Counted from the first letter of the stretch, positions 4,624-55,574 are shown. The stretch: 64,000 nucleotides of DNA from Microbotryum violaceum (GCA_001244265.2 CDLV01000018.1:62001-126000), one strand, 5' to 3'. The notes: a model not told the origin generated them from the letters alone. Program-made: numbers and translations.

Positions 4624-6195
4624 ATGTCATCGCCATCGGTGCACCGAAGCTCCTCACACGACAGGGCCGGACTACGCTCTGCTCTCAAGAAAGATCACGT
4701 CCACCCTGATCCGCGGCTCGACCCTACGAGAATGGAAGGACTCTGGCCGATTCGCTCGGTATCGACCCCAAGGTATCCTCCCATTTGGACGGCAACACAA
4801 TTGGATCTCCGCCGCACGCAAGTGGTGGTGCGCCAATTGCCTCCGGCTCGTACCCGCCCAGCGATCCCACGTCTGGGGCCCCGTCTCGTAGCGCCACTTC
4901 ATTGTTAGATCCTTCGGATGCCGAGGCAAAGAAGAGCTCGTCGAGCCTTAGTTTAACCCCCAAGTTTCAGCGGCGCGTCGGCTTCGACACGTTTGACTCC
5001 GAGGAGGTCGAGGGAAGCACGGGCGGAGGAACAGGTACGGCCCGCGGTCTCATCAAAAGGGCTACAGCGAGCATCTGAACACTGCACCAGTATCATATTG
5101 ATAACTGATTCTGGCTCTCACCACCGTGTTCCCAAAATTTTGTGACGATCTCTCGACTCGCGGGGATTCGATCGACACTCTCAGGAGTGAGTTACTCGTT
5201 CACGATTGGCGCCAAATCAGCGTCGTACTGCCGCGCGAGGTACACCCGCACCTTTCTATGCTGCACCGATCTAAACGGTGGGTCTGTATTCAGCCTTTGC
5301 GTTCAACGATGGCGTGAAATGCTGATCACAGCTCATGTTGTAGAGTATTCTGTCCACGCCCTTGATTGGCTACTGACCAATCTCGTCGAGGACCACGACG
5401 AAATTGTCGTCTTGCGAGTCATCGAACCCGGATCTTCAGCGCATGCCGCATGGAGGGCGAGTATAGAAAAGGCGAAGAGGGAGGCCGAAAGGGTGCTGGA
5501 GGAAGTGATGCGCAAAAACGGCGAGGAGAAACAGGTCCGTCCGGCCTCCTCGATTGCTGCTCCGAAGACCGACTAACATCCTGATCAGCGGATTTTCCGG
5601 GACAGATTTCGATCATTGTAGAGTTTGCCATTGGTCCTATTGAGGAGACGATTCATAGGTGCGATTTCCTGTTTGAACGCACGAAACGTCTCACCAATAC
5701 CAATACTATGCCTCTCTCTCCTCAGGATGGTCGAGATCTACGAACCGGATTCGCTGATCGTGGGTACGCGTGGGAAGCAAGAATCGCTATTCAAGCCGAT
5801 GATGGGCTCCATATCCAAGTATTGTGTGGCGCGTAGCCCCGTACCTGTTGTAAGCTCTACATTCTTTTGGCGATTGGGCGTGCCAGACCCCACCCCCCCC
5901 CCCCCCCCGGGTCTCAAGGCTGATCTGACTGCGTGTTCACGTCGTATCGCGACAGGTCGTTGTTCGTCCCGAGGACAAAGTGCAGGCATCTCTCAACGCT
6001 CGCCGCAGCGACTCGAAGCGTCAAAAGCACCTCTACCAGCTTTACGACGATGCGCGAGCGGCCGCATCGACGCCGACGTTGCAAGGGTCAGCTTTAGAAC
6101 GTAGTACAACGACTACACCAGCCGCTGCTGCTTCCGCGGAGAGCAAGCAGGAAAAGAAGGGAACCAAGTTGCAAAAGTTCGATACGTTTGGATGA
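4624..6195 (+). CDS. Universal stress protein (Usp) domain protein, multi-exon
   Basis: RRVGFDTF, SYSFTIGAKS..RTFLCCTD, YSVHALDWLLTNLVEDHDEIVVLRV and YEPDSLIVGTRG..MGSISKYCVARSPVPV, joined by GT-AG introns. There is an apparent 1-nt frame break near 4707. Confidence 0.85.
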
Positions 6196-6529
6196 CGAGT
6201 CAGTACCATCTGAACTCTTTGAGTGTAAAAAGCACGACATCCGTCGTTTCACGTGGCTCACTAACTACTAGGTAGTCAGCCGATGGAAGTGACCACTAAA
6301 TGAAATAGATGCAGTTCAGTTCTCAAGCAAATGCGTTCTCAATTCTCCCGTACCGAGGTAAACTCCATGTGTAATCATTTTATTTTTCATGAGGTGCGAC
6401 CCGATTTAAGTCCGCGCTCGTCTGCGCTGAAGTGCATTGGAGTGCGCTGCTAGCGCTGCTGGCGTGCAGTGGAGGTCCTGCTATGTAGGTCCTGCTCGCG
6501 TGCCTGCTCGACCTGCTCAGCCGGTAGCC

Positions 6530-7095
6530 CAGGACCCCGAAAGCCCAGCCATACACGGCCAGCCCTTTGGATGGGGATTTCGCACGGATCCGCTCCTGAT
6601 TTCCGCAGGGTCTGACTGGCGCTAGCCTCGCGGTGCTGGATCATACGGATTCCACGGTGGACACGAGAAGAAGTTGAGATTGTCATTTTCTGAGCGCATG
6701 AAACCTATTGCAGACAGTTAATCAACTGTTTGGGGATGCTTAACATCTACTCCATTCTTAGCAACCGCTAGTGAACTGATGCTGTAATGTTTCTACATAC
6801 CATATGGATTCCAGAGTACCAAAATCTAAGTTTTGCAGAAGGGTTTCATCAGAAACGCGTACTGGGTACGGACTCATGTTATCCGTACGAGGGAGGGTCG
6901 CGCGTGTAGGCGGCCCTCCAAAAACGGCATTTTCGAGGCAAAATGTCCAATTTTTTCCCGGATTCTGACTGAAAATGTCCAGATATGAGGGCCGCCTAGT
7001 GTTGAACAATTTCTCAAAACTACTCTACAAGCTGTACAATGCTCAGATTTTTTTCTGCGCACTGCGTTCCAGCCGAAAGGCTTTCGGGGGTCCTG
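6530..7095. mobile_element. MITE-like element with short TIRs (CAGGACCCCGAAAGCC...GGCTTTCGGGGGTCCTG)
   Basis: Inverted termini at 6530-6545 and 7079-7095 (1-nt indel) around a non-coding, lower-GC interior. No TSD found. Confidence 0.65.
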
Positions 7096-7113
7096 AGGAC
7101 CCCGAAAGCCCGG

Positions 7114-9330
7114 CCTGAGGCGCGTAGCGCCCGACTGGACAAATTGTGGGCCTCAGATGGGCCAAAATCGCGAAGGCGCGTAGTCGGGGGTGGACAAATC
7201 AGGGTGCGCCGGTGCGGGTAGGGTCCGAGGCCCGTAGGTGCCAGTGGACAAATCTGGACCCATTTCAGCCACATTCGGCTTGGTGCGCCAGAGTTTGCCG
7301 ACCCTCAAGAACGTGCGGAGCGCGCGCGAAACACTCTGGCCTGTACCGAATTCACAACAAGGGCTCTAATGGTTCGATTCTGCAATTAGAAGCCTCTTGG
7401 CTGGTTGAACGAGCCGTCTCGTCTGAGTGCGCCGTCTCTTGCCTCCCCCGCCCCGTCGCGTCGTCTGTGCCATCATCGTCATCAACATCCTAGGTTAGGC
7501 TCTCGCTTCAGCCAACTTCGACGAGATGTATCTAGACAATTTGGATATCGAGCTCCTTGACGATGATTTCGAGCGAATGGCACCCCTCTTGGACGTGAGG
7601 GTGTCTGAGCTTCTCGCCTTCCGCTTCGACAACCCACTGCAGACACCCAGATAACCCAGATACAGTTTTCATGGTCGACAGACGAGCCTCTCGAGTGTGA
7701 TACTCTTCCTAGGCCGCTCGATGCTTGGACGGACAAGTTCAAGGATCGTGGAGCAATTACTGCGGCGCGTGAGCAAGGTTACCGGTCAATTGCTATCGCT
7801 GGGCACCGGCTGCCTTTCGGTGTCGAAGGATCTGGCGGCATATAGATTACACCGAGCGCATGCGTTCGATGGTTATCAGTAGCCAAAAGTGGATGGAAAC
7901 TTATCTGGGTGTCGACATCGAGCCTCTCATCGTTAAGGCTCTGGAGGTGCTGCCGCCACTGCTCATTGAGGAGCAATATACCCCCTCAAGGATCCTCGGG
8001 TGTAGCGCGTCTTTGCACACGCTGCTCGATTTCGTTGGGAAGCAGCCAAATTGTTCGTCTGTTCGATGGCGTGGATTGATTGGGATTATTTTTCGTGCTT
8101 TTCCTAGGGACAACGTGGCTTGGAGAAAGGTCTCGTCGTGCTAGACCCGAAAGAGCGGAAGTCAGTTGAAAACGCTGTTCGCTCCTTAGCTGCTCTTGGC
8201 CTTGACAATGATGCTGCACTGTGCTTGAGACTTGTACCAGCCTCCTCCGAGCTGATGATACGTCTCTTCCAATTCTAGGCTTGCCATTCAGCAGGCCTAT
8301 GACGAGGCCGATGCTCAAGCAGAGGAACGCTTTCTACTCGACGCCATTGAGACAGCAAATGAAAGCTTGCCAGGTCGTGTAGGTTCATTTAAGTAGCAAC
8401 TGTCTTCTTGCAGAACCACTAAACAGAACCAGCACTCTTTCACAGGCTCAAATTCTTCGGCTCCCATCCGTTCTGCGTTACGACCCTCGTCAGCTTGCGC
8501 TTGATCTGAAAAGCTTGATCGAGCACCGTCGGGCCCATCAATGTGCCCACCTCAAGGCTGTCCTACTCAAGGGAAGGCACGGCGCTCCCACCTCGACTGC
8601 CCAAGATTTCGATCCCACATCAAGCGCAAAATTGTCCGAGCACGGTGAAGTGCACTACAGTGTCCTCCGAGGCTTAGTGCAATCAATGGGTGCAGCCCGT
8701 CTCGAAGCCGTGTCAGGAGTTGCGAGGTCCATTCGTTGGACCGAACAAAGGACCTTCAGTTGCTCTTCGACCGCAAACGAGACAGACAACATAGGATACA
8801 TCGAAGACGGACGTAAAGAGGTGAGCTACAATTGTGTGCTGTGCACATATGGCCCAGAGAGTGCTCATCAATAATGTTCATTCTTGCCCAGATACGGATG
8901 CAATCGCGAGCAAGGCAATACACGGCATTCGCCAAGAACCCACCGTTTGGGTCGATCGACGGAAACGTCACGTCAGCTACGCCTTTGAAAATCGGCTCTC
9001 TTGTCTGCTTCGGATTGAAACGAGGCATCATACCTGGCAGTTGTGACGCCAGCAACATAGGAGAAGAACAATTGTCCATTGGACTTGGTTCGTGCATCTC
9101 ACTGTAGCTAGCTTACTGCTTTGCAGAGTGACTGGCATCGATTTTACCTCTCGTAGCGCACCAAGCCGAATGTGGCTGAAATGGGTCCAGATTTGTCCAC
9201 TGGCACCTACGGGCCTCGGACCCTACCCGCACCGGCGCACCCTGATTTGTCCACCCCCGACTACGCGCCTTCGCGATTTTGGCCCATCTGAGGCCCACAA
9301 TTTGTCCAGTCGGGCACTACGCGCCTCAGG
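7114..9330 (+). mobile_element. TIR DNA transposon, non-autonomous internal-deletion derivative, 3-bp TSD
   Basis: 175-bp TIRs at 7114-7288 and 9156-9330 with one mismatch. CGG flanks both ends (7111-7113, 9331-9333). Each TIR holds three AGGC(G/C)CGTAG-N7/8-TGGACAAAT units. Confidence 0.92.
7526..9107 (+). pseudogene. Disrupted coding remnant inside the TIR element (Ulp1-like start joined to a transposase-like C-terminus)
   Basis: Frameshifted pieces MYLDNLDIEL.., AREQGYRSIAIAGHRLPF, SLHTLLDFVG/TTWLGE, LDLKSLIEHRRAHQC, VSGVARSIRW and GNVTSATPLKIGSLV. Family resemblance is from recollection only. Confidence 0.5.
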
Positions 9331-9465
9331 CGGCCGATCGATTCGATCCAACGTAATTCGGCGGTGCTGTCCCCTCCAATCCAGATCTCGACGGAATCCT
9401 CCTCCCTCCAATTTGGCCTGGCCTGGTCCAATCCACTCAATTGTCCTTCGTAAGCCATTGTCGGT

Positions 9466-12400
9466 ATGGCAGAAGCAGTGAGTCGTGATCAGCGGCTGTG
9501 CCATGTGCCCGGCCCCGCTTCGTGGGCTCGCTCATCTTGGTTTGGTTGAAGATATCTGACGTTGACGTCGACCGTTATGGCCTTCTTCGATCCTCGGGTC
9601 GGGTTTCATTTCCCTACTTGGTCACCCGATCTCAGTTCCCTTTCAAGGCTGTTGCTCTCTCAAAGTACAAGTCAGCGCCGGGCGCGCCCAAGCTGGCTTT
9701 CCTGCAGGGCGACGAGTTGACTGTGCTGAACCGCGATGATGACTGGTACGAGGGAACGACCATCTCGGGCCAAACGGGCTACTTCCCCGCCGAAGCTGTC
9801 CGGCAATTGGAAAATGACACCCCAGCTCCTTCTGGCGAGATCGCATCGCCAGCCCTCGCGACACGTGTTGAAAGCGTTGCGTCACCGCTGCCCAGCTCGT
9901 CCGATCCACCAGGCCCCACCACGCTGTCGCTGACCCCACCGACGACCCACCGTTCGGCTCAGCGCCCCGAGCCCAGGATCACGGTACCGAATGTTGTGGA
10001 TCCTTTTTCCGAGGAGCAACCCAAGCCCACGTCCCTCAAAGACCGGATCGCGGCTCTTAACGCGGCCGGGGCTGGGGCCGTGGCCCCACCTCCCGTCCGT
10101 CCCAAGCCGCGCGAATTGAAGCGCTCCACTGCACCCGTCCCCCTCGCAGACGGTGTCAGACCGGAATCCCCCACGACAGGCTCGCCAGTTCTGTCGCCTG
10201 TCATCTCAGTCACGGACTCGAGCGTAAAGTCATCCGTTGGCTTGTCAGCCGAAGACGCCGCAGAGGCAATCGGAAAAGGAGGGGGTAGCCTCAAAGACCG
10301 TATCAAGGCACTGCAAGGAATCCAGATGTCCACCCCTGCAGCTCCTGGACGTGCTCCTAAGCCGCGGAAGAAGACTAGTGTCAACACTGCCGCAGGCTCA
10401 GAGCTAGAGCGAGCTGCAGATTCGCCAGCGCTTGCTCTTCAATATTCTGAGTCCGATGAGGCGCAAAGGGCCGCTGTGAGGGAATCAAAATCGATGGAGC
10501 CATCTGAAGCTGTTCGGGCTCTTGTTGAAGCGGGAACAAGATCCTGTGCGAACTCCGTCGCGGACCCCGATGCCCACGCGGGGGCTCGAACGCTTCCGCC
10601 GGAGAACGAGCAGCACGAGTACCGTGTATCGACCAAAGCAAAGCTCGAACGCTCTTCAAGTGATGTAGACGGCCCTCAAAGACCTCCAGTGGCCGAACGA
10701 GCAGCGGGCATTGGCGACCAGCAATTTTCGATGGCAATGCCAGCTCTCCCGAAACGAGCGGTCCCACCCAGGAGGAAACCACCGGTGGTTAAGCCGGCAC
10801 CGGATGATGGTGTTAGCGACGTCGTAGTCGAGGCATCCTCCGCAGGACCAGTCGCTACCATTTCGCGCGGGGAGACTTTGGAGATATCAGCCCCGTCGCT
10901 TCTGGCGGGTGACAAGCAGTCATATGGGCAAGATGACAGCTACATGCCAGAGACTGACCCTAACACTGTCGCTTCTGAACACGATGTCTTGTCTGAGAAT
11001 GCGGCCGAGGAATCCAGCAATTGCACCAAGTCGAATACACCTGCCGTCCCTCCCAATACGGTCCACGTCGCATCAGATTCGCCTGCTGTGAGTTCGTTTA
11101 GAAACCGAATCAGTCCGGACCTCTCCCTATCGGCCAGCAGAATCTGGTCCCTGCTCAACGCAGAATTTGCGCCACGCCCACAGGAAAAATATACTCCGCT
11201 GCCGGGGTCGGGACTTGCGTTGACCCAAGGGCCGTTTGATACCACTGTATTCACCTCTCCACCATCTCGTCAGGACGACCCTTTCACCAGAGATCTTTCC
11301 AGTCCTCTCTCCATCGCAGCAACTTCAGCGCCGACAATCGACGACGAGCAGAAACTCCCAAGCCCGCAGCGACCTGCGATCCCTCAATCATTCGTAGTGG
11401 ATTGCATTGAGCACCCAGAGGATAATACTGTGGATGGAGACAACCATAGCTTTACCAAGGTTGCCAATCTCGAAGCCACGATTCAGCCCAGCACTCAACA
11501 GCTCGGCTCGGATGAGGTGGGACTTGAGGATGAAGCTGGAGAAGCCGAGGCCGAGGTACGGAATTATTTATTGCAAGATGTCCCCGATCAAAGAGTCATC
11601 GAAGAGACACAAGACCCTCGAGGCTTCCACGGAGGGGCTGGTGCACATGATAAGGAGCCTGGGCGTGCGAAGGAGGAGGAGGGGGAGGATAATGACGACG
11701 ATGAAGAGGACCCAGAACTCGCTCGTCGAGCTGCTCTGGCGGCACGAATGGCCCGCTTGGGAGGGATCAGCATGCGCATGCCTGGAGGTGCCATGATGTC
11801 ACCTATTGGTGGTATCCGATCATACAAGAAACCGGTCAAGGCTATGACCAAGGACGATTCACACTCCGGGCAGCAACTTTCAACGGGTGAGAGACACTGC
11901 TTGCCGAACCTTCGCCACTCGACGACCTGGCTAACGCATCCTATCCGCAGATGGCGACGACGTATCATGTAACCAGTCGGCCACAGAGCAAAGCTTTGTC
12001 CCCTCGCCTTTCCTTGGGATTCCTAGAGGAGGGGTCGCCATTTCTGGACTTGGCGTGAGGCCAGCGCCGCCTCCGGTCGACTCTGAAGATATTTCTGCCG
12101 CGACACCCAAGGACGAGGTTGGAGGTTCTCAAGCATTCAAGAGGTTACAAGCATTGGAAGAACTGTCTATCCAGCAGAACTTCGAGCAGCTCGACGATAA
12201 CCCGCGTGGAGAGGAGACCTGTAGCGACACCGGCGCAATCAGTCTACCCGAACGCGTGGAGGCAGTGCCGGACCCGTCCGTTCACGCTGTCCCTGACCCT
12301 CCCCCCAGACCTCGAGGCGGCCTACCCTCCGTACCAGCTCAGCCGACCTTCAGCCTCGAAAACATCAGTGAGCTAGCGGTTCCTTCGTCCCCACAAGTCG

Positions 12401-46875: not shown

Positions 46876-49800
46876 CGCCGATGTCTTTCTCCTGAGCGAA
46901 ACGGGCCGACCTTCCCCGGAAAGGGTTGCCCAGTGGACTCAGGAGTGCCAAGACTTAAAGCTCTCCGCTCTTTTCACTCCTCTCAACAACACCGCTATAC
47001 TCTGGAAGAGCGACTCCGTGGTCATCACTATTGATCCCGAGTCACCTCCCAACACTCTTCGTGCCTCTTTCGCTTTCCCCGACCGAGTCACCGACGCCAC
47101 CTTTCGCGTGGGAGACTCAAAAATCCGGGTTGTATCAATATACGCGCCTTCCTCCGACAAGCCAGACAAAAAGCGTTTCCTCTCACATCTCAGCACAGCC
47201 CTCCGACAAGTCGTGCGCGACGAGCCCTCGCCGCCTGCGCTCTTAGTCGGGGGGGACTGGAATTGTGTTGAGTCCCAACCCCTCGATTCGGAGAACCAAA
47301 ACGGGACGAATTATGGGGCCAGGAGATGCGCGACCTTGCCACGGCCAACAACCTCTTTGATGTCTATCGGCTTCACCATCCCAAAGGACGAGCCACGACG
47401 AATCGCTCAGCGCCCGGCACGTGCCGTCGCCTTGACCGCATCTATGTCTCGCCTGATTGGGTCGACCTCTTCCACGACCACAAAATCTGGGCTCCTGTCC
47501 TCAAATCGACGCACTCGATGGTGGCGGCGCGGTTCCAAGTGCCGGGCGCAATCGACATCGGTCCGGGTAAATTCAAGTTGGGTTTGCACGTGATCGAGGG
47601 CGACGCGACCTGCGAATACCTCACTTCCACTGTCCAGGCCCTCTACAATGAAGCCCTCCTCCAGACGCCCGACGACCCATCAGCAGCTTGGACGTCCACC
47701 AAACAACACTTGCTGCCCGAGCTTCAGGCTCTGGCTCGCACACTTGCCCGCTTCCGACGTGGAGGATCGGAGGAGGCGAAGGCAGATCACTCGCGCTACG
47801 GCGCGGCGCTGCGGTCCCGCATTGATCCTTCCCTCGCGGGCCCATCTTCCATCTTCATCCGCCTACGCAAAGTGCGCGCATCCGACCTCATCCCTTCCCT
47901 CTCGGTCGACAATGTCGTCCACTCCGACCCCGACTCGATGCTTGGAGCCGCTAGCAAGTACTTCGAAGGGGTCTACGAGGATCGCGCTATCGATGACGCC
48001 GCCTTGGAGAAGATTATCGACGGTCTCGCCTCGACTCGCCTATCCCCTGCCGATTCGGACAAGCTCGAAGGAGCGTACCCCCTAGAGGAGATAACAAAGG
48101 CACAAGAGGCGTGTAAGTCGAACTCCTCGCCTGGACCCGACGGTCTCCCGGTCGAGTTTTACCGCGCAACGTGGACAGCCACAGGCCCCATCCTCCGCGA
48201 CGTCATCAACTCGATCCCCACCGACGACGCCAGTTCTCGAACGTCGGCCCGCCACACTGCCCACATCCACCTCATCCACAAGCGCGGCGAGAGGGATCGG
48301 CTGGTGAACAAACGCCCCATATCACTCATCAACGCTGATGAACGCATCATCTCCCAAGCCCACAACCAGCGCCTTGCCCCTCTGCTCGAGACCCTGATCG
48401 GCTCGACCCAGCGCGGTTTCGTTCCGAACCGCTGGATTGGCACGAACATCGCCGAGGTGCAGTGTCTCATGGATCCTGGGCTCCCGGGTTCAGAGCCGGT
48501 GTCCGGTCTGCTCGCAGTGATGGACTTCGAGAAGGCTTACGACCGTCTTTCCCACACCTACATCGATGCAGTCCTCAGCGCCGTTGGCCTTGGCCCGAAA
48601 GCCTGCCAATGGTACCGAGCGACCTATACAAACCAATCCGCCTCAATCTACCTCAACGGATGGCTCTCGGCCGCGTTCGATATCCTCTCGGGAGTTCGAC
48701 AAGGCGACCCGCTGGCTCCGTCGCTCTTCGTTCTCGCAATTGAGGGCTTCGCCGTACAGTTGCGGTCACAAGTCAAGGGCATCGCGAGCCCGGGACTCCC
48801 AACCATACGAGAACTTCTCTTTGCCGACGATGCCTGCTGTGCTCTCCACGACACCTCGGACCTCGACCACCTCAATCGGGCGATCGAGCTGTACGAGCGG
48901 GCAAGTGCCAGCAAGCTCAGCAACGCCAAATCTTTCCTCTACCCCCTCGGGTCATTCAGGGACCGTCCGATCCCTTCACACCTCGGGTCCTGGCGTCTCA
49001 GCGACTCGCAGTTTCGTTACCTGGGAGTGCAGGTTGGGGTGGACATCGCCGAGGATGCGGGCTGGGAGGAGGTCAAGTCCGCGACCGTCGCCCGGATACG
49101 ATCCATCCCAATGTACGACCTTCCGTACGCAGCGAAATGTTCGATAATCAATATCTACTGCTACACGAAGATTCTCTACCATAATCGTTTCATCCCAGCT
49201 TCCAAGAGCGTCGTCAAGGAGATCGAGGACGCGGTCATGATCGCTATCCACGGTCGAGCCTCGGACGGATCTCAGAAACCCCGAAGGTCTCTCGGCTGCG
49301 CCTCTGCACCCCTCTCGACCACGGCGGCTTTGGCTTGATTGACTTACCTCGGCGCCTCGCGGTCGATCACGCCAAGTGGGTCTTTCATCTTCGGGACCCG
49401 GACGGCTGCTTCATTCGGCACCTCTTCGACATCCGCACTCGCCTTCAGGCGGCGAACGAACGCACCCCCTTTACCTTGCCCAAATCAGGCCCCAACCCAC
49501 ATCGTCGCTCGTGGGTCTGGATCTGGTGGGCCTACTTTTGCCACCCTCCTCCACAGTGGGAACGCGCAGTGAGGAAGACGAAGGCCCTGCTCCCTCCACG
49601 ATGGATCCGCTATTTCGAAGCCTGGGATTTGGTGACAACGCTGAACCCCCCCGAACTTTCCAAGAGCCCGAATCTGGAGCGGTGGGCAACACACGTCCTC
49701 TACTTCCCAGCAGGCCACGGAATCCGACTCTCGGTGAACCCGACGCTTTTCCGAGGACCCGATGGCGAGGTGATGACTCCGTCTTCGTTTGTGAACGCGT

Positions 49801-52053: not shown

Positions 52054-55000
52054 AATCCCAAACGTGTCTTTTGTTGCTGCCAACGTGCAGTCAATCAATG
52101 AAGACCGTAAGCGTGCCTCTCTTTTCTCCAATCTCCGCTCCCATAACGCCGACGTCTTTCTCCTGAGCGAAACTGGCCGACCTTCCCCGAAAGGGTGGCC
52201 CAGTGGACTCAGGAGTGCCAAGACTTAAAGCTCTCCGCTCTTTCACTCCTTTCAACAACACTGCCATACTTTGGAAGAGCGACTCCGTGGTCATTACTTT
52301 TGATCCCGAGTCGCCTCCAAACACTCTTCGTGCCTCTTTCTCTTTCCCGGACCGAGTCACCGACGCCACCTTTTGTGTGGGTGATTCAAAAGTCCGGGTT
52401 GTATCAATATACGCGCCTTCCTCCGACAAGCCAGACAAAAAACGCTTCCTCTCACACCTCAGCACCGCCCTCCGACAAGTTGTACGTGACGAACCCTCGC
52501 CGCCTGCGCTCCTAGTCGGGGGGGACTGGAATTGTGTTGAGTCCCAGCCCCTCGATTCGGAGAACCAAAACGGAACGAATTATGGGGGTCAGGAGATGCG
52601 CGACCTTGCCACGGCCAACAATCTTTTCGACGCCTATCGGCTCCATCATCCTAAAGGACGAGCCACGACGAATCGCTCAGCGCCCGGCACGTGCCGTCGC
52701 CTTGACCGCATCTATGTCTCGCCTGATTGGGTCGACCTCTTCCATGATCACAAAATTTGGGCTCCTGCTCCTGTCCTCAAATCGACGCACTCAATGGTTG
52801 TGGCACGGTTCCAAGTGCCGGGCGCAATCGACATCGGTCCGGGCAAATTCAAGCTGGGTTTGCACGTGATCGAGGGCGACGCGACCTGCGAGTACCTCAC
52901 CTCCATTGTCCGCACCCTTTACAACAAAGCCCTCCTCCAGACGCCCAACAATCCACCAGCAGCTTGGACGTCCACCAAACACCGCCTGCTGCCCGAGCTG
53001 CAGGCTCTGGCCCGGACTTTCGCTGACCACTCGCGCTACGGCGCGGCCCTGCGGTCCCGCCTCGACCCATCTCTGGCGGGTCCCTCTTCCATCTTCATCC
53101 GCCTGCGCAAAGTGCGAGCATCCGACCTGATCCCTTCGCTCACGGTCAACGATGTTGTTCATTCCGACCCTGATTCGATGCTTGGAGCGGCCGGCGACTA
53201 CTTCGAGCGGGTCTAGAGGACCGCCCCATCGATGACGCGGTCCTGAAGGCGGTCATCGACGGCCTCGCTTCAACTCGCCTCTCCCCGCGGACTCACTCAA
53301 GCTCGATGAAGCGTACCCGTTGGAGATGACAAAGGCTCAAGCGGCGTTTAAGTCGAACTCTTCGCCAGGGCCTGACGGCCTCCCGGTTGAGTTTTATCGC
53401 GCTACGTGGCCGGCCACTGGCCCGATTCTTCGAGACGTCATCAACTCGATCCCCACCGAGGCCCGTCAGCCTGGACCTCTTCCCCGCCACACCGCCCACA
53501 TCCATCTCATCCACAAACGCGGCGAGAGGGATCAGCTTTCGAACAAACGCCCCATATCGCTCATCAATGCGGACGAGCGCATCATCTCGCAAGCCCACAA
53601 CCAGCGCCTCGCTCCCTTGCTCGAGTCCCTGATCGGCCCAACCCAACGTGGCTTTGTTCCGAACCGTTGGATCGGCACGAACATCGCTGAGGTTCAATGT
53701 CTCATGGACCCTGGACTTCCGGGCTCAACACCCGTGTCTGGCATGCTAGCGGTGATGGACTTTGAAAAGGCTTACGATCGTCTTTCCCACCCGTACCTTG
53801 ATGCAGTCCTCTGCGCCGTTGGCCTCGGCCCCAAAGCCCGCCAATGGTACCGAGCGACCTACACCAACCAATCTGCCTCGATCTTCCTCAACGGTTGGCT
53901 CTCTGCCACTTTCGACATCCTGTCGGGCGTTCGGCAAGGTGATCCTTTGGCTCCGTCTCTCTTCGTCCTGGCGATCGAAGGTTTTGCCTGTCAGATTCGA
54001 TTGAGAGTCAAGGGCATCGATATTGCGGGCCTCCAAAACGTTCGCGAACTCCCTTTTGCCGACGACGCTTGCTGCGCACTCCACAACCTCTCGGACCTCG
54101 ACCACCTCAATCGGGCGATCGAGCTTTACGAACGGGCAAGTGCCAGCAAGCTCAGCAACGTCAAATCTTTCCTCTACCCCCTTGGAGCTTTTCGGGATCG
54201 GTCGATCGCCCCAGATCTCGGGACCTGGCGTCTCAGCGATTCGCAGTTTCGCTACCTTGGTATTCAGGTCGGGGTGGAGATCGCCGAGGATGCGGGCTGG
54301 CAAGATGTCAAGGCCTTGACCATCGCTCGGATACGCTCGATTCCGATGTACGATCTCCCATATGCAGCCAAGTGTTCGATCATCAACATCTACTGCTACA
54401 CAAAGATCTTGTACTACAGCCGATTCCTTCCCGCCCCCAAGAGCGTTGTCAAGGAGATCGAGGAGGCCGCCATGCTCGCCATTCACGGTCGAGCTTCGGA
54501 TGGTACTCAGCGACGTCCGAAGGTCTCCCGGTCGCGCCTCTGCACCCCTCTCGATCACGGTGGCTTCGGTTTGATTGATCTGCCTCGGCGTCTAGCAATC
54601 GATCACGCGAAGTGGGTCTTCCAGCTACGGGCCCCGGACGGCTGCTTCACACGCCACCTCTTCGACATCCGCATCCGCCTCCAGGCACCAAACGAACCAA
54701 CCCCTTTCACCTTGTCCAGACCGGCCCCCAACCAGCATCGTTGCCCTTGGATTTGGATCTGGTGGGCATACTTTTGCCATCCTCCCCCAAAGTGGGACCA
54801 TGCGGTGAGAAAAACGACAAAACTTCTTCCTGCTCGTTGGGTCCGATACTTCGAAGCCTGGGCGTCGGTGACCACGCTCAATCCCCCGGAACTCTCCAAG
54901 AGCCAGAACCTCGAGCAATGGGCGACGCACGTACTCTATTTCCCAGCGGGCCACGGAATACAACTCTCGGTAAACCCGAGGCTTTTTCGAGGGCCCGATG

Positions 55001-55574
55001 GCGAGGTGATGACCCCGTCTTCGTTTGTGAACGCGTCCAAACGCCACCAAGTCTTCATCCTCCCCCCTATCTTCCCCAAGGGACACCAGAAGGTATTCGA
55101 TCTGCCTGAGCAACGCTGGAACGCTTGGTGGAAGGCTTTGCGCAAGGTTCGCCGGGTTCACTCGGACGCCGAGGATACCGGCCACCTTCTCTCCCTGGGG
55201 TCCCTCCATCCGGGAAGCCAAGTCGCCTCCCCAACCAGCCCACATCCCAACAATCGATCTACCTCCTGTGTGATGTGCCTCTCGGAAGCACTCGAGTGCC
55301 TGGTTCACCTCGCGGTCGGCTGCCCATTTGCCCGGCGCCTCTGGTCTGCTCTGTCCCGACCCCCCACCCAGTCTTTGTGGACTTTGTATGCCCGGTCGTG
55401 TCTCGCTCGGAACGTCGACTTGTCGAACTACGAGTCCTCTTCTTTCACTCGATCTGGAAGCTGTGTCGCCGTCGTCGATTCTCGTCGGATCTTTTGGAAC
55501 CGATCACCGAAACGGAGTTCGAGGGGCTTTGAGCCTCTATCCAGGAGTCCAAGGGTCGCCTAGTGTCTCTGTAA
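52037..55574 (+). pseudogene. LINE ORF2 (APE-RT-zinc finger), disrupted
   Basis: Start MMSTTKIPNVSFVAANVQSIN; stop at 53214; frameshifts near 52190-52240, 53300 and 55365; FADD retained. Confidence 0.93.

What the first reader, a model, noticed from the sequence alone, without database searches (positions are those of the whole stretch)
7114..9330. Unclassified DNA transposon: 175-bp modular TIRs, CCTGAGG ends, 3-bp CGG TSD
Seen: TIRs identical at 174/175, each with three AGGC(G/C)CGTAG-N7/8-TGGACAAAT units at about 55-bp spacing, a CGG duplication and a decayed interior. Established: 3-bp TSDs typify CACTA/EnSpm (CAC/CCC-type ends) and PIF/Harbinger (TWA/CWG targets), while hAT, P, MULE and Zisupton give 8-9 bp. 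This combination fits none cleanly. Inference: a recently mobile non-autonomous member of a poorly described fungal transposon group with an active partner elsewhere. This is my best candidate for an undescribed system in the window.
Basis: partly seen in the sequence, partly recalled or inferred. Interest (0 to 1): 0.78.

Follow-up and report, generated by a model that had tools for sequence, protein, structure and literature searches.

The report
Deleted copy of a fungal transposon
This is a real but crippled copy of a multi-copy DNA transposon of anther-smut fungi (Microbotryum) that has lost the enzyme-coding middle of its gene; the family is oddly built and unclassified, but the claimed 3-base target duplication rests on this one copy and is doubtful.

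Summary
The inverted repeats are real: 175-176 nt, one mismatch, three bipartite units per arm, CGG on both flanks. The interior is not just decayed. It holds the 5' and 3' remnants of a roughly 1,500-1,700-aa transposase gene. Longer copies are annotated as hypothetical proteins in Microbotryum lychnidis-dioicae and M. silenes-dioicae. About 1,100 aa are deleted: a Ulp1 protease domain, a zinc finger and the whole DDE core. The last ~120 aa are also missing. It is multi-copy in four public runs.

Its superfamily is neither CACTA nor Harbinger. None of 20 family proteins hits a Pfam transposase family, and the CACTA-type C(2)C/H(3-4)H motifs are absent. A D-D-D(2)H-E layout and protein-language-model features point to a very distant P-element/THAP9-like enzyme. 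No HMM or fold result confirms this.

The ends and the 3-nt TSD are not secured. Other copies match the window about 19 nt beyond the left "end". No empty site was seen, and CGG/CGG has a 2-6% chance expectation.

Interest is moderate: a new variant of a known kind.

The parts
7114..7288 (+). Left terminal inverted repeat (175 nt; 176 if 7113 is counted)
   Evidence: 174/175 identical to the right arm
9156..9330 (-). Right terminal inverted repeat. Its outer edge coincides with the repeat/unique border.
   Evidence: table 8: single-copy contigs of X1, X11 and X14 start at 9302.
7118..7253 (+). Three bipartite units (7118-7144, 7174-7199, 7228-7253), inferred transposase binding sites
   Evidence: 6 matches in the window, 0 in 100 shuffles. 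Binding is inferred, not tested.
9191..9326 (-). The three mirrored units of the right arm (9191-9216, 9245-9270, 9300-9326)
7111..7113 (.). Left CGG, candidate target-site duplication
   Evidence: chance 1.9-6.5%; this copy only
9331..9333 (.). Right CGG, candidate target-site duplication
7096..7113 (+). 18 nt outside the left arm that other genomic copies also carry. It is either the family's true outer terminus or a preferred target motif.
   Evidence: tables 7 and 8 (loose ends before 7100: 7 contigs in X11, 1 in X18; X14 contig 7100-7219); the same 16-mer stands at 6531.
7505..8045 (+). Remnant of the 5' part of the transposase gene (N-terminal region and the start of the Ulp1 domain), with frameshifts near 7650 and 7830
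   Evidence: P0008 residues 31-162 map to 7505-7898 in three frames, and P0001 residues 1-125 map to 7526-8033..
8046..8125 (+). Junction of the large internal deletion. About 1,100 aa are missing: Ulp1 core, zinc finger and the whole DDE core.
   Evidence: the match jumps from P0008 residue 162 to 1324; P0002 residue 604 and P0012 residue 1036 map to 8126
8108..9087 (+). Remnant of the 3' part of the gene (C-terminal region), as exons separated by GT..AG introns
   Evidence: P0012 residues 1036-1253 map to 8126-9086 in four blocks.; the 163-aa ORF finds 11 proteins.
9088..9155 (+). Last retained intron. The second deletion starts exactly at 9155/9156, and the final ~120 aa of the gene are missing.
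   Evidence: table 7: in all 4 runs other copies continue behind 9154-9156 with letters that read VRYMYAKATS, the next residues of P0012

Best explanation
Window 7114-9330 is a non-autonomous, internally deleted copy of a multi-copy cut-and-paste DNA transposon family of Microbotryum. Full-length members encode one large protein of about 1,500-1,700 aa. From N to C it has a conserved N-terminal region, a Ulp1-type cysteine protease domain, a CxxC...H...C zinc finger, a DDE RNase-H-like core with a D(2)H motif and a long helical insertion before the catalytic E, and a conserved C-terminal region. This copy keeps only the two gene ends, with frameshifts, between two 175-nt inverted repeats.

Shown: the repeats, the homology, the deletions and the multi-copy state.

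Inferred: the family's transposase, supplied in trans, binds the three repeated bipartite units in each arm, pairs the ends and cuts and pastes the element. The enzyme is most likely a very distant relative of P-element/THAP9 transposases (about 0.55), and is neither CACTA nor Harbinger.

Open: the true outer termini and the TSD length. The 3-nt CGG may be real, or it may be chance beside a copy whose right tip is missing.
For: Repeats and units.

Homology: the 163-aa interior ORF finds 11 proteins among 1.84 billion representatives, 4 of them at E<=1e-30. These include 862-, 1,375- and 1,517-aa forms named as Microbotryum hypothetical proteins.

Deletions: tblastn maps the window to P0008 residues 31-162 and 1324-1486 only. 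Loose ends behind 9156 in 4 of 4 runs continue into the next exon.

Ulp1 domain: Pfam PF02902 in P0008 (6.4e-5) and P0014 (1e-6). The family profile hits Ulp1 structures 6dg4 and 1euv at E about 2e-3, with the H and C motifs aligned.

Core motifs conserved down to relatives of 29-35% identity: SxxADG, D-x-K-H, DRQDDNA..R.FS, and PW..[ST]E..EH.FG..R.

P-like signal: with the core (residues 390-1010 of P0012), all 10 of the ten best named Atlas clusters carry P/THAP9 families PF21787, PF21788 or PF21789. Scores reach 0.95 with 206-208 of 256 shared features. D(2)H after the second D and an insertion domain of about 190 aa are part of the P signature (passages read, PMC8230255).

Multi-copy: word depth inside the element is about 10-57 times that of the single-copy flanks in X1, and similar in X11 and X14 (table 2; the tool warns that this is not a copy number).
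Against: No HMM or fold link to P transposases was obtained. None of 20 family proteins hits any Pfam transposase family, even at E<=10 for 11 of them. Four PDB sequence/profile searches find no transposase. Both AlphaFold models are poor, with mean pLDDT 32.6 and 46.7, so the fold searches are uninformative.

The Atlas evidence is feature similarity without an alignment, and it was not calibrated for parts of proteins.

P elements make 8-nt TSDs (passages read, PMC7776569). The 8-mers flanking this copy differ.

No intact full-length gene was seen. No other copy's two ends, no empty site and no RNA evidence were seen.
Confidence: 0.8

Rival explanations
1. The borders are misplaced. The family's true terminus lies about 19 nt further out, beginning around 7095 with the motif also found at the ends of the neighbouring MITE-like repeat at 6530-7095. 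This copy has lost its right tip, the CGG/CGG match is chance, and the copy is an immobile relic.
For: tables 7 and 8: 9 contigs from other loci (7 in X11, 1 in X18, 1 in X14) share the sequence outward to 7100, or to about 7095, and then diverge; the same 16-mer begins the repeat at 6531 and, inverted, ends it at 7080-7095, as expected if a MITE shares termini with its autonomous family; the chance of the flank match is 1.9-6.5%. No loose end at 7113/7114 is among the 24 listed (113 are not shown).
Against: The inverted repeat and the repeat/unique border coincide exactly at 9331 on the right, and the arms are symmetric to the base. The contigs that reveal flanks are the more diverged copies (X14: 8 differences in 120 nt) and may be another subfamily. 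Nothing like the outer motif lies right of 9331, so a deletion has to be assumed.
Confidence: 0.4
2. The family is a superfamily-level lineage of its own: a Ulp1-fused DDE transposase with no real kinship to P beyond the generic RNase-H/D(2)H class. It has long modular inverted repeats and a true 3-nt TSD, and it inserts preferentially into the short motif seen left of the element.
For: No Pfam or PDB sequence match to the core. Only 11 hits for the C-terminal region among 1.84 billion representatives. CGG/CGG flanks. The left motif is shared by other copies. [quoted passage not shown]
Against: The Atlas features are consistently P-like. The TSD is seen in one copy only. The right flank is single-copy DNA, not the rest of a repeated target.
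Confidence: 0.18
3. It belongs to a described 3-nt-TSD group: CACTA/EnSpm (CMCT clade), PIF/Harbinger or AcademX.
For: A 3-nt flank match. Subterminal repeats are common in CACTA elements (recalled). AcademX makes 3-4-nt TSDs (passage read, PMC10045372). Academ is reported as most abundant in Pucciniomycotina (passage read, PMC5751038).
Against: No PF02992, PF03017, PF03004, PF13359 or PF04827 in 5 long family proteins at E<=10. [quoted passage not shown] Ends are not CAC..GTG at the inverted-repeat border. CGG is not TWA. No XPG or helicase family in the proteins seen, although a second ORF of a full-length element could not be examined.
Confidence: 0.07
4. The interior ORF is a working gene, for example a truncated regulator of the family comparable to the shortened proteins of deleted P elements, rather than dead remnant.
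For: Independent deleted forms that keep the N- and C-terminal parts exist in two subfamilies (P0001 393 aa, P0006 490 aa). Gene callers produce open models.
Against: Compared with P0008 and P0014, the N-terminal part changes frame twice in the window. The zinc finger is deleted. No RNA holder was available. Keeping the two ends is what any internal deletion does.
Confidence: 0.05

Closest known systems
P-element / THAP9 (TNP-like) transposon superfamily
   Same: The core follows the D...D...D(2)H...long helical insertion...E order (P signature from PMC8230255). Language-model features match: all 10 of the ten best named clusters. Internally deleted non-autonomous copies occur alongside longer ones. 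Transposase sites lie inside the ends rather than at the very tip (PMC7776569). Among fungi, P elements are listed in RepBase only from Pucciniales and Allomyces (PMC5751038), and Pucciniales are in the same subphylum as Microbotryum.
   Different: No Pfam TNP-like or PDB 6P5A sequence match. There is no THAP domain but another zinc finger; THAP is stated to be restricted to animals. An N-terminal Ulp1 protease domain is present. The inverted repeats are 175 nt with three units, against 31 nt in P. The flanks show 3 nt, not 8.
CACTA/EnSpm and the wider CMCT clade
   Same: Possible 3-nt TSD, a large transposase, and repeated subterminal motifs.
   Different: No Transposase_21/23/24. No C(2)C and H(3-4)H motifs. 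Ends are not CAC..GTG at the inverted-repeat border.
Ulp1-carrying DNA transposons (some MULEs, Ginger1)
   Same: A Ulp1 (PF02902) protease domain is joined to a transposase (PMC2836005).
   Different: Here the domain is N-terminal and the core is neither MULE (no PF10551/PF00872) nor integrase-like (no PF00665).
Ds-, dSpm- or KP-type internal-deletion derivatives
   Same: Both ends and both gene ends are kept while the catalytic middle is lost. Mobility would depend on a full-length partner.
   Different: The analogy is one of origin only. The partner's activity is not shown here.

Membership tests
CACTA/EnSpm (CMCT clade) | [quoted passage not shown] | tested here: not met
   no conserved C(2)C or H(3-4)H in 11 aligned family proteins; no such Pfam family in 5 long proteins at E<=10. 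Feature definition from PMC12730594 and PMC5751038.
CACTA/EnSpm (CMCT clade) | Termini 5'-CA(C)..(G)TG-3' and 2-5-nt TSD | tested here: inconclusive
   The inverted-repeat border reads CCTGAGG..CCTCAGG. If the terminus lies further out, it would start with CAGG in other copies. The 3-nt flank match is seen in one copy only.
PIF/Harbinger | DDE_Tnp_4 / Plant_tran transposase | tested here: not met
   0 of 20 family proteins
PIF/Harbinger | 3-nt TSD, usually TWA; second Myb-like ORF | tested here: inconclusive
   The flanks are CGG, which is not TWA. No full-length element was available to look for a second ORF.
P superfamily | DDE core with D(2)H after the second D and an insertion domain of about 190 aa before the E | tested here: met
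   ADG, then D-x-K-H 52 residues later in P0021, then the E of EH.FG about 175 residues after that. This is a motif-level match only; the fold was not confirmed.
P superfamily | Sequence-profile match to TNP-like / Tnp_P_element families or to the solved P transposase | tested here: not met
   (E<=10): none
P superfamily | Fold of the catalytic and insertion domains like 6P5A | tested here: inconclusive
P superfamily | 8-nt TSD | tested here: not met
   the 8-mers outside 7113/7114 and 9330/9331 differ. One copy only, and its borders are uncertain.
P superfamily | Protein-language-model feature similarity | tested here: met
   all 10 of the ten best named clusters are P/THAP9-like, with scores up to 0.95
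hAT | hAT dimerisation domain (PF05699) and 8-nt TSD | tested here: not met
   no PF05699; no 8-nt repeat.
KDZ / Zisupton | KDZ transposase domain; 8-nt TSD | tested here: not met
   No KDZ family in Pfam scans at E<=10. No 8-nt repeat. TSD length from PMC12730594.
MULE with Ulp1 | MULE / Transposase_mut domain | tested here: not met
   only PF02902 is found, no PF10551 or PF00872
AcademX | Academ-type DDE transposase with an XPG nuclease; 3-4-nt TSD | tested here: inconclusive
   A 3-nt flank match. No XPG family in the proteins seen. No Academ profile is on hand and no full-length element was examined. The Academ paper (PMC7165386) is not held.

The most novel reading that the evidence does not exclude
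The family is a lineage of eukaryotic cut-and-paste transposons not yet placed in any superfamily. It would combine a Ulp1-protease-fused DDE/D(2)H transposase beyond HMM reach of all Pfam transposase families, 175-nt arms built of three binding-site units, a genuine 3-nt TSD, and a preference for inserting into a short GC-rich motif that also forms the ends of a companion MITE.
Probability: 0.18. Interest if true: 0.7.

Novelty: new variant of a known kind. Interest (0 to 1): 0.42.

Why it matters
Published Microbotryum repeat annotations that I read in passages treat 'TIR' elements as one bulk class. One comparative study reports that the classical TIR superfamilies were not found in the two Microbotryum genomes it studied.

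Tying this 2.2-kb element to a large Ulp1-DDE protein gives that class a concrete, testable family. It flags a set of 'hypothetical protein' gene models (for example the 393-aa type) as transposon remnants rather than host genes. If the P-like link holds, it would extend a superfamily that is rare in fungi to the Microbotryales, in a form with a protease domain and very long modular ends.

For the scan itself, the lesson is that a TSD read from one copy beside other repeats is weak evidence.

Tried and rejected
- Whole genome: none is held, so copies, TSDs and empty sites could not be tabulated.
- Pfam on 12 interior ORFs: nothing, apart from one chance-level hit at E 0.16.
- Homologue search with the full-length alignment A1: swamped, 3 proteins found. 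The core-only alignment A3 added three relatives at 29-35% identity.
- Metagenome scan with the protein alignment: 597 pattern stretches, 0 confirmed.
- Metagenome scan with the unit pattern: 7 loci, each with a single match and no further likeness to the element. The best BLAST pieces are the 27-29-nt pattern itself at 79-82% identity. I read these as chance.
- Structure: two AlphaFold jobs gave unusable models. Foldseek on pdb and VIA-align wide gave only weak helical matches.
- PDB sequence/profile searches: only Ulp1 proteases were found.
- Sequencing runs: no RNA holder was listed.
- Laid contigs: no contig joins 7113 to 9331, so no empty site was seen. The listing is cut (113 loose ends and 1,018 pieces are not shown), and contigs cannot prove absence.
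- Right flank against the expected outer motif: no likeness, score 5.0 against shuffles of 4.76 +/- 1.08.
- Papers not held: Yuan and Wessler 2011 and Kojima 2020 on AcademH.
- Supplements: not opened. The REPET consensus tables of PMC4469406 and the TE library of PMC10502011 may already contain and classify this family.
- Literature searches for a Ulp1-bearing P-like fungal element: nothing relevant appeared in the listings. Only the listings and the cited passages were read.

Full report
1. What is in the sequence

The inverted repeat is real. Arms lie at 7113-7288 and 9156-9331, 176 nt and 99% complementary. BLAST gives 174 of 175 for 7114-7288 against 9330-9156. Each arm holds three copies of AGGC(G/C)CGTAG-N7/8-TGGACAAAT, starting at 7118, 7174 and 7228 and mirrored on the right. 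These are the only 6 matches in 64 kb, and 100 shuffles gave none. CGG stands on both flanks, at 7111-7113 and 9331-9333. The window holds one copy. No whole genome is held for this window.

2. The interior

Read on the + strand, the interior is a chain of open stretches in changing frames, separated by short GT..AG segments. The 163-aa stretch at 8383-8874 found 11 proteins among 1.84 billion representatives, 4 of them at E<=1e-30. Three of the 11 are much longer than the interior could encode: 862, 1,375 and 1,517 aa. Sources name them as hypothetical proteins of Microbotryum lychnidis-dioicae and M. silenes-dioicae. The window therefore comes from this genus or a very close relative. The ~57% G+C and the ~23-Mb contig sets of the holder runs fit this.

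tblastn maps the window to residues 31-162 and 1324-1486 of the 1,517-aa protein P0008, and to residues 1036-1253 of P0012. Three points follow.
- About 1,100 aa in the middle are missing. The junction lies between about 8045 and 8125.
- The last ~120 aa of P0012 are missing. In all 4 laid runs other copies continue behind 9154-9156 with letters that read VRYMYAKATS, the next residues of P0012. So 9088-9155 is a true intron, and a second deletion starts exactly at 9155/9156, at the inner edge of the right arm.
- In the N-terminal part the homology to P0008 and P0014 runs through two frame changes, near 7650 and 7830. Gene models such as the 393-aa P0001 bridge these with 'introns'.

Other copies differ by small indels at 7605, 7825, 8073 and elsewhere, and by a 9-nt piece behind 8220 that carries a canonical splice donor (table 4). 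'Decayed' is thus partly right. The better description is an internal-deletion derivative.

3. What the family encodes

Aligned family members show the following order.
- A conserved N-terminal region.
- A Ulp1 protease domain. Pfam PF02902 scores 6.4e-5 in P0008 and 1e-6 in P0014. The family profile hits Ulp1 structures 6dg4 and 1euv at E about 2e-3, with the His and Cys motifs aligned.
- A CxxC...H...C finger.
- A core with HV[DE]DTK, SISADG, RDEKH (QDPKH in distant relatives), DRQDDNA..R.FS, a helical stretch, and PW..TE.VEHFFG.LR.
- The C-terminal region that the window retains.

The core motifs survive in three relatives of only 29-35% identity.

4. Which superfamily

None of the 20 family proteins scanned hits any Pfam transposase family. 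Eleven of them were scanned at E<=10. This argues against hAT, MULE, CACTA, PIF/Harbinger, KDZ, piggyBac and Tc1, which all have models.

The C(2)C and H(3-4)H motifs that unite CACTA, Mirage, Chapaev, Transib, Plavaka and ESTA (passage read, PMC12730594) are absent.

The D...D...D(2)H...insertion...E order matches the P signature as described for Drosophila P transposase and THAP9 (passages read, PMC8230255). A language-model search with the core alone returned P/THAP9 clusters as all ten of the ten best named hits, with scores up to 0.95 and 206-208 of 256 shared features.

From recall only, the helix around the catalytic E resembles the corresponding P/THAP9 motif more than the hAT one.

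Against this, four PDB sequence/profile searches found only Ulp1 proteases. Both structure models were poor, with pLDDT 32.6 and 46.7, and the fold searches gave nothing usable. I put the P-like reading at about 0.55.

A survey of fungal cut-and-paste elements lists P in RepBase only from Pucciniales and Allomyces (passage read, PMC5751038).

5. Copies elsewhere

Seventeen runs hold half or more of the sampled words of window 6400-10000. Four were laid: X1, X11, X14 and X18, which carry four organism codes.

Word depth inside the element is roughly 10-57 times that of the single-copy flanks in X1, and similar in X11 and X14. The tool warns that this is not a copy number. In X1, 96 of 314 laid contigs are at least 99% alike, 128 are 95-99% alike and 90 are 90-95% alike.

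Joints show further deleted forms. One skips 53 nt, which is one unit of the arm. Others skip 157 nt and 1,196 nt.

The single-copy contigs of X1, X11 and X14 end at 6595 on the left and start at 9302 on the right. The same insertion is therefore present in all three. No contig joins 7113 to 9331, so no empty site was seen.

6. Ends and TSD

The left side does not fit.
- 6565-7113 is also repeated DNA, at 7-30 times flank depth.
- Contigs from other loci match the window outward to 7100 and, allowing one extra C, to about 7095 before they diverge: 7 in X11, 1 in X18, and a single-copy 2,156-nt contig in X14 (tables 7 and 8).
- The same 16-mer stands at 6531 and, inverted with one extra G, at 7080-7095. 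So 6530-7095 looks like a MITE whose ends equal that outer motif, and 7080-7111 is a near-perfect palindrome.
- Nothing like the motif lies right of 9331.

Two readings remain. Under the first, the true terminus lies about 19 nt further out, this copy lacks its right tip, and CGG is chance. The chance is 1.9% for 3 nt, or 6.5% if the 7113/9331 pair is counted as part of the repeat. Under the second, the family prefers that motif as a target and CGG is a real TSD. I weight them at about 0.4 and 0.25, with the rest undecided. An 8-nt repeat, expected for P (passage read, PMC7776569), is not present at these borders.

7. Mechanism

Shown: two arms with repeated units, remnants of the family's own gene, and many copies including other deletion forms.

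Inferred: the full-length protein binds the units through its finger region, pairs the ends and moves the element by DDE cut-and-paste. This copy can move only in trans, if its ends are complete. The Ulp1 domain probably acts on SUMO-type conjugates during transposition, as proposed for Ulp1 domains in MULEs and Ginger1 (passage read, PMC2836005).

No intact autonomous copy was seen.

8. Novelty and verdict

Published Microbotryum annotations that I read in passages keep 'TIR' as a bulk class (PMC4469406, PMC10502011). [quoted passage not shown] Their supplements, which I did not open, may hold a consensus of this family. Repbase could not be searched.

On present evidence this is a real, ordinary-in-kind non-autonomous transposon. 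It belongs to an unusual, unclassified and probably P-related family.

Interest 0.42; new variant of a known kind.

Noticed in passing
window 6530-7095: Multi-copy MITE-like repeat whose two ends carry the same 16-17-nt motif in inverted orientation. It has an inner 28-nt inverted repeat at 6907-6934/6971-6998. Other loci join 6552 to about 6914-6930 and so lack about 355 nt of it. Its right end abuts the element's left flank head to head.
   Followed up: partly
window 7080-7111: Near-perfect 32-nt palindrome, formed by the end of that repeat and the 16 nt that precede the element. Its centre contains the same heptamer (CCTGAGG) as the element's inverted-repeat tip.
   Followed up: partly
window 8220: Other copies carry 9 extra nt here that include a canonical GTAAGT splice donor; the window copy lacks them (table 4).
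   Followed up: no
window 7181-7235: Some copies in X1 and X11 skip 53 nt here, which is one of the three units of the left arm. Two-unit arms therefore exist (table 5).
   Followed up: no
window 47272-49338 and 53236-55563: Two + strand ORFs with reverse-transcriptase domains (RVT_1, E 1.8e-20 and 5.6e-21), probably retroelement copies about 6 kb apart.
   Followed up: no
window 9489-11972: An SH3-domain ORF begins about 130-160 nt to the right of the element, so the insertion sits in its upstream region.
   Followed up: no
window 7128 / 9316: The single mismatch between the two arms is a C/T difference at a CpG in the spacer of the outermost unit.
   Followed up: no
window 5896-5912: A run of about 17 C inside a short intron-like segment of the upstream gene region.
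   Followed up: no
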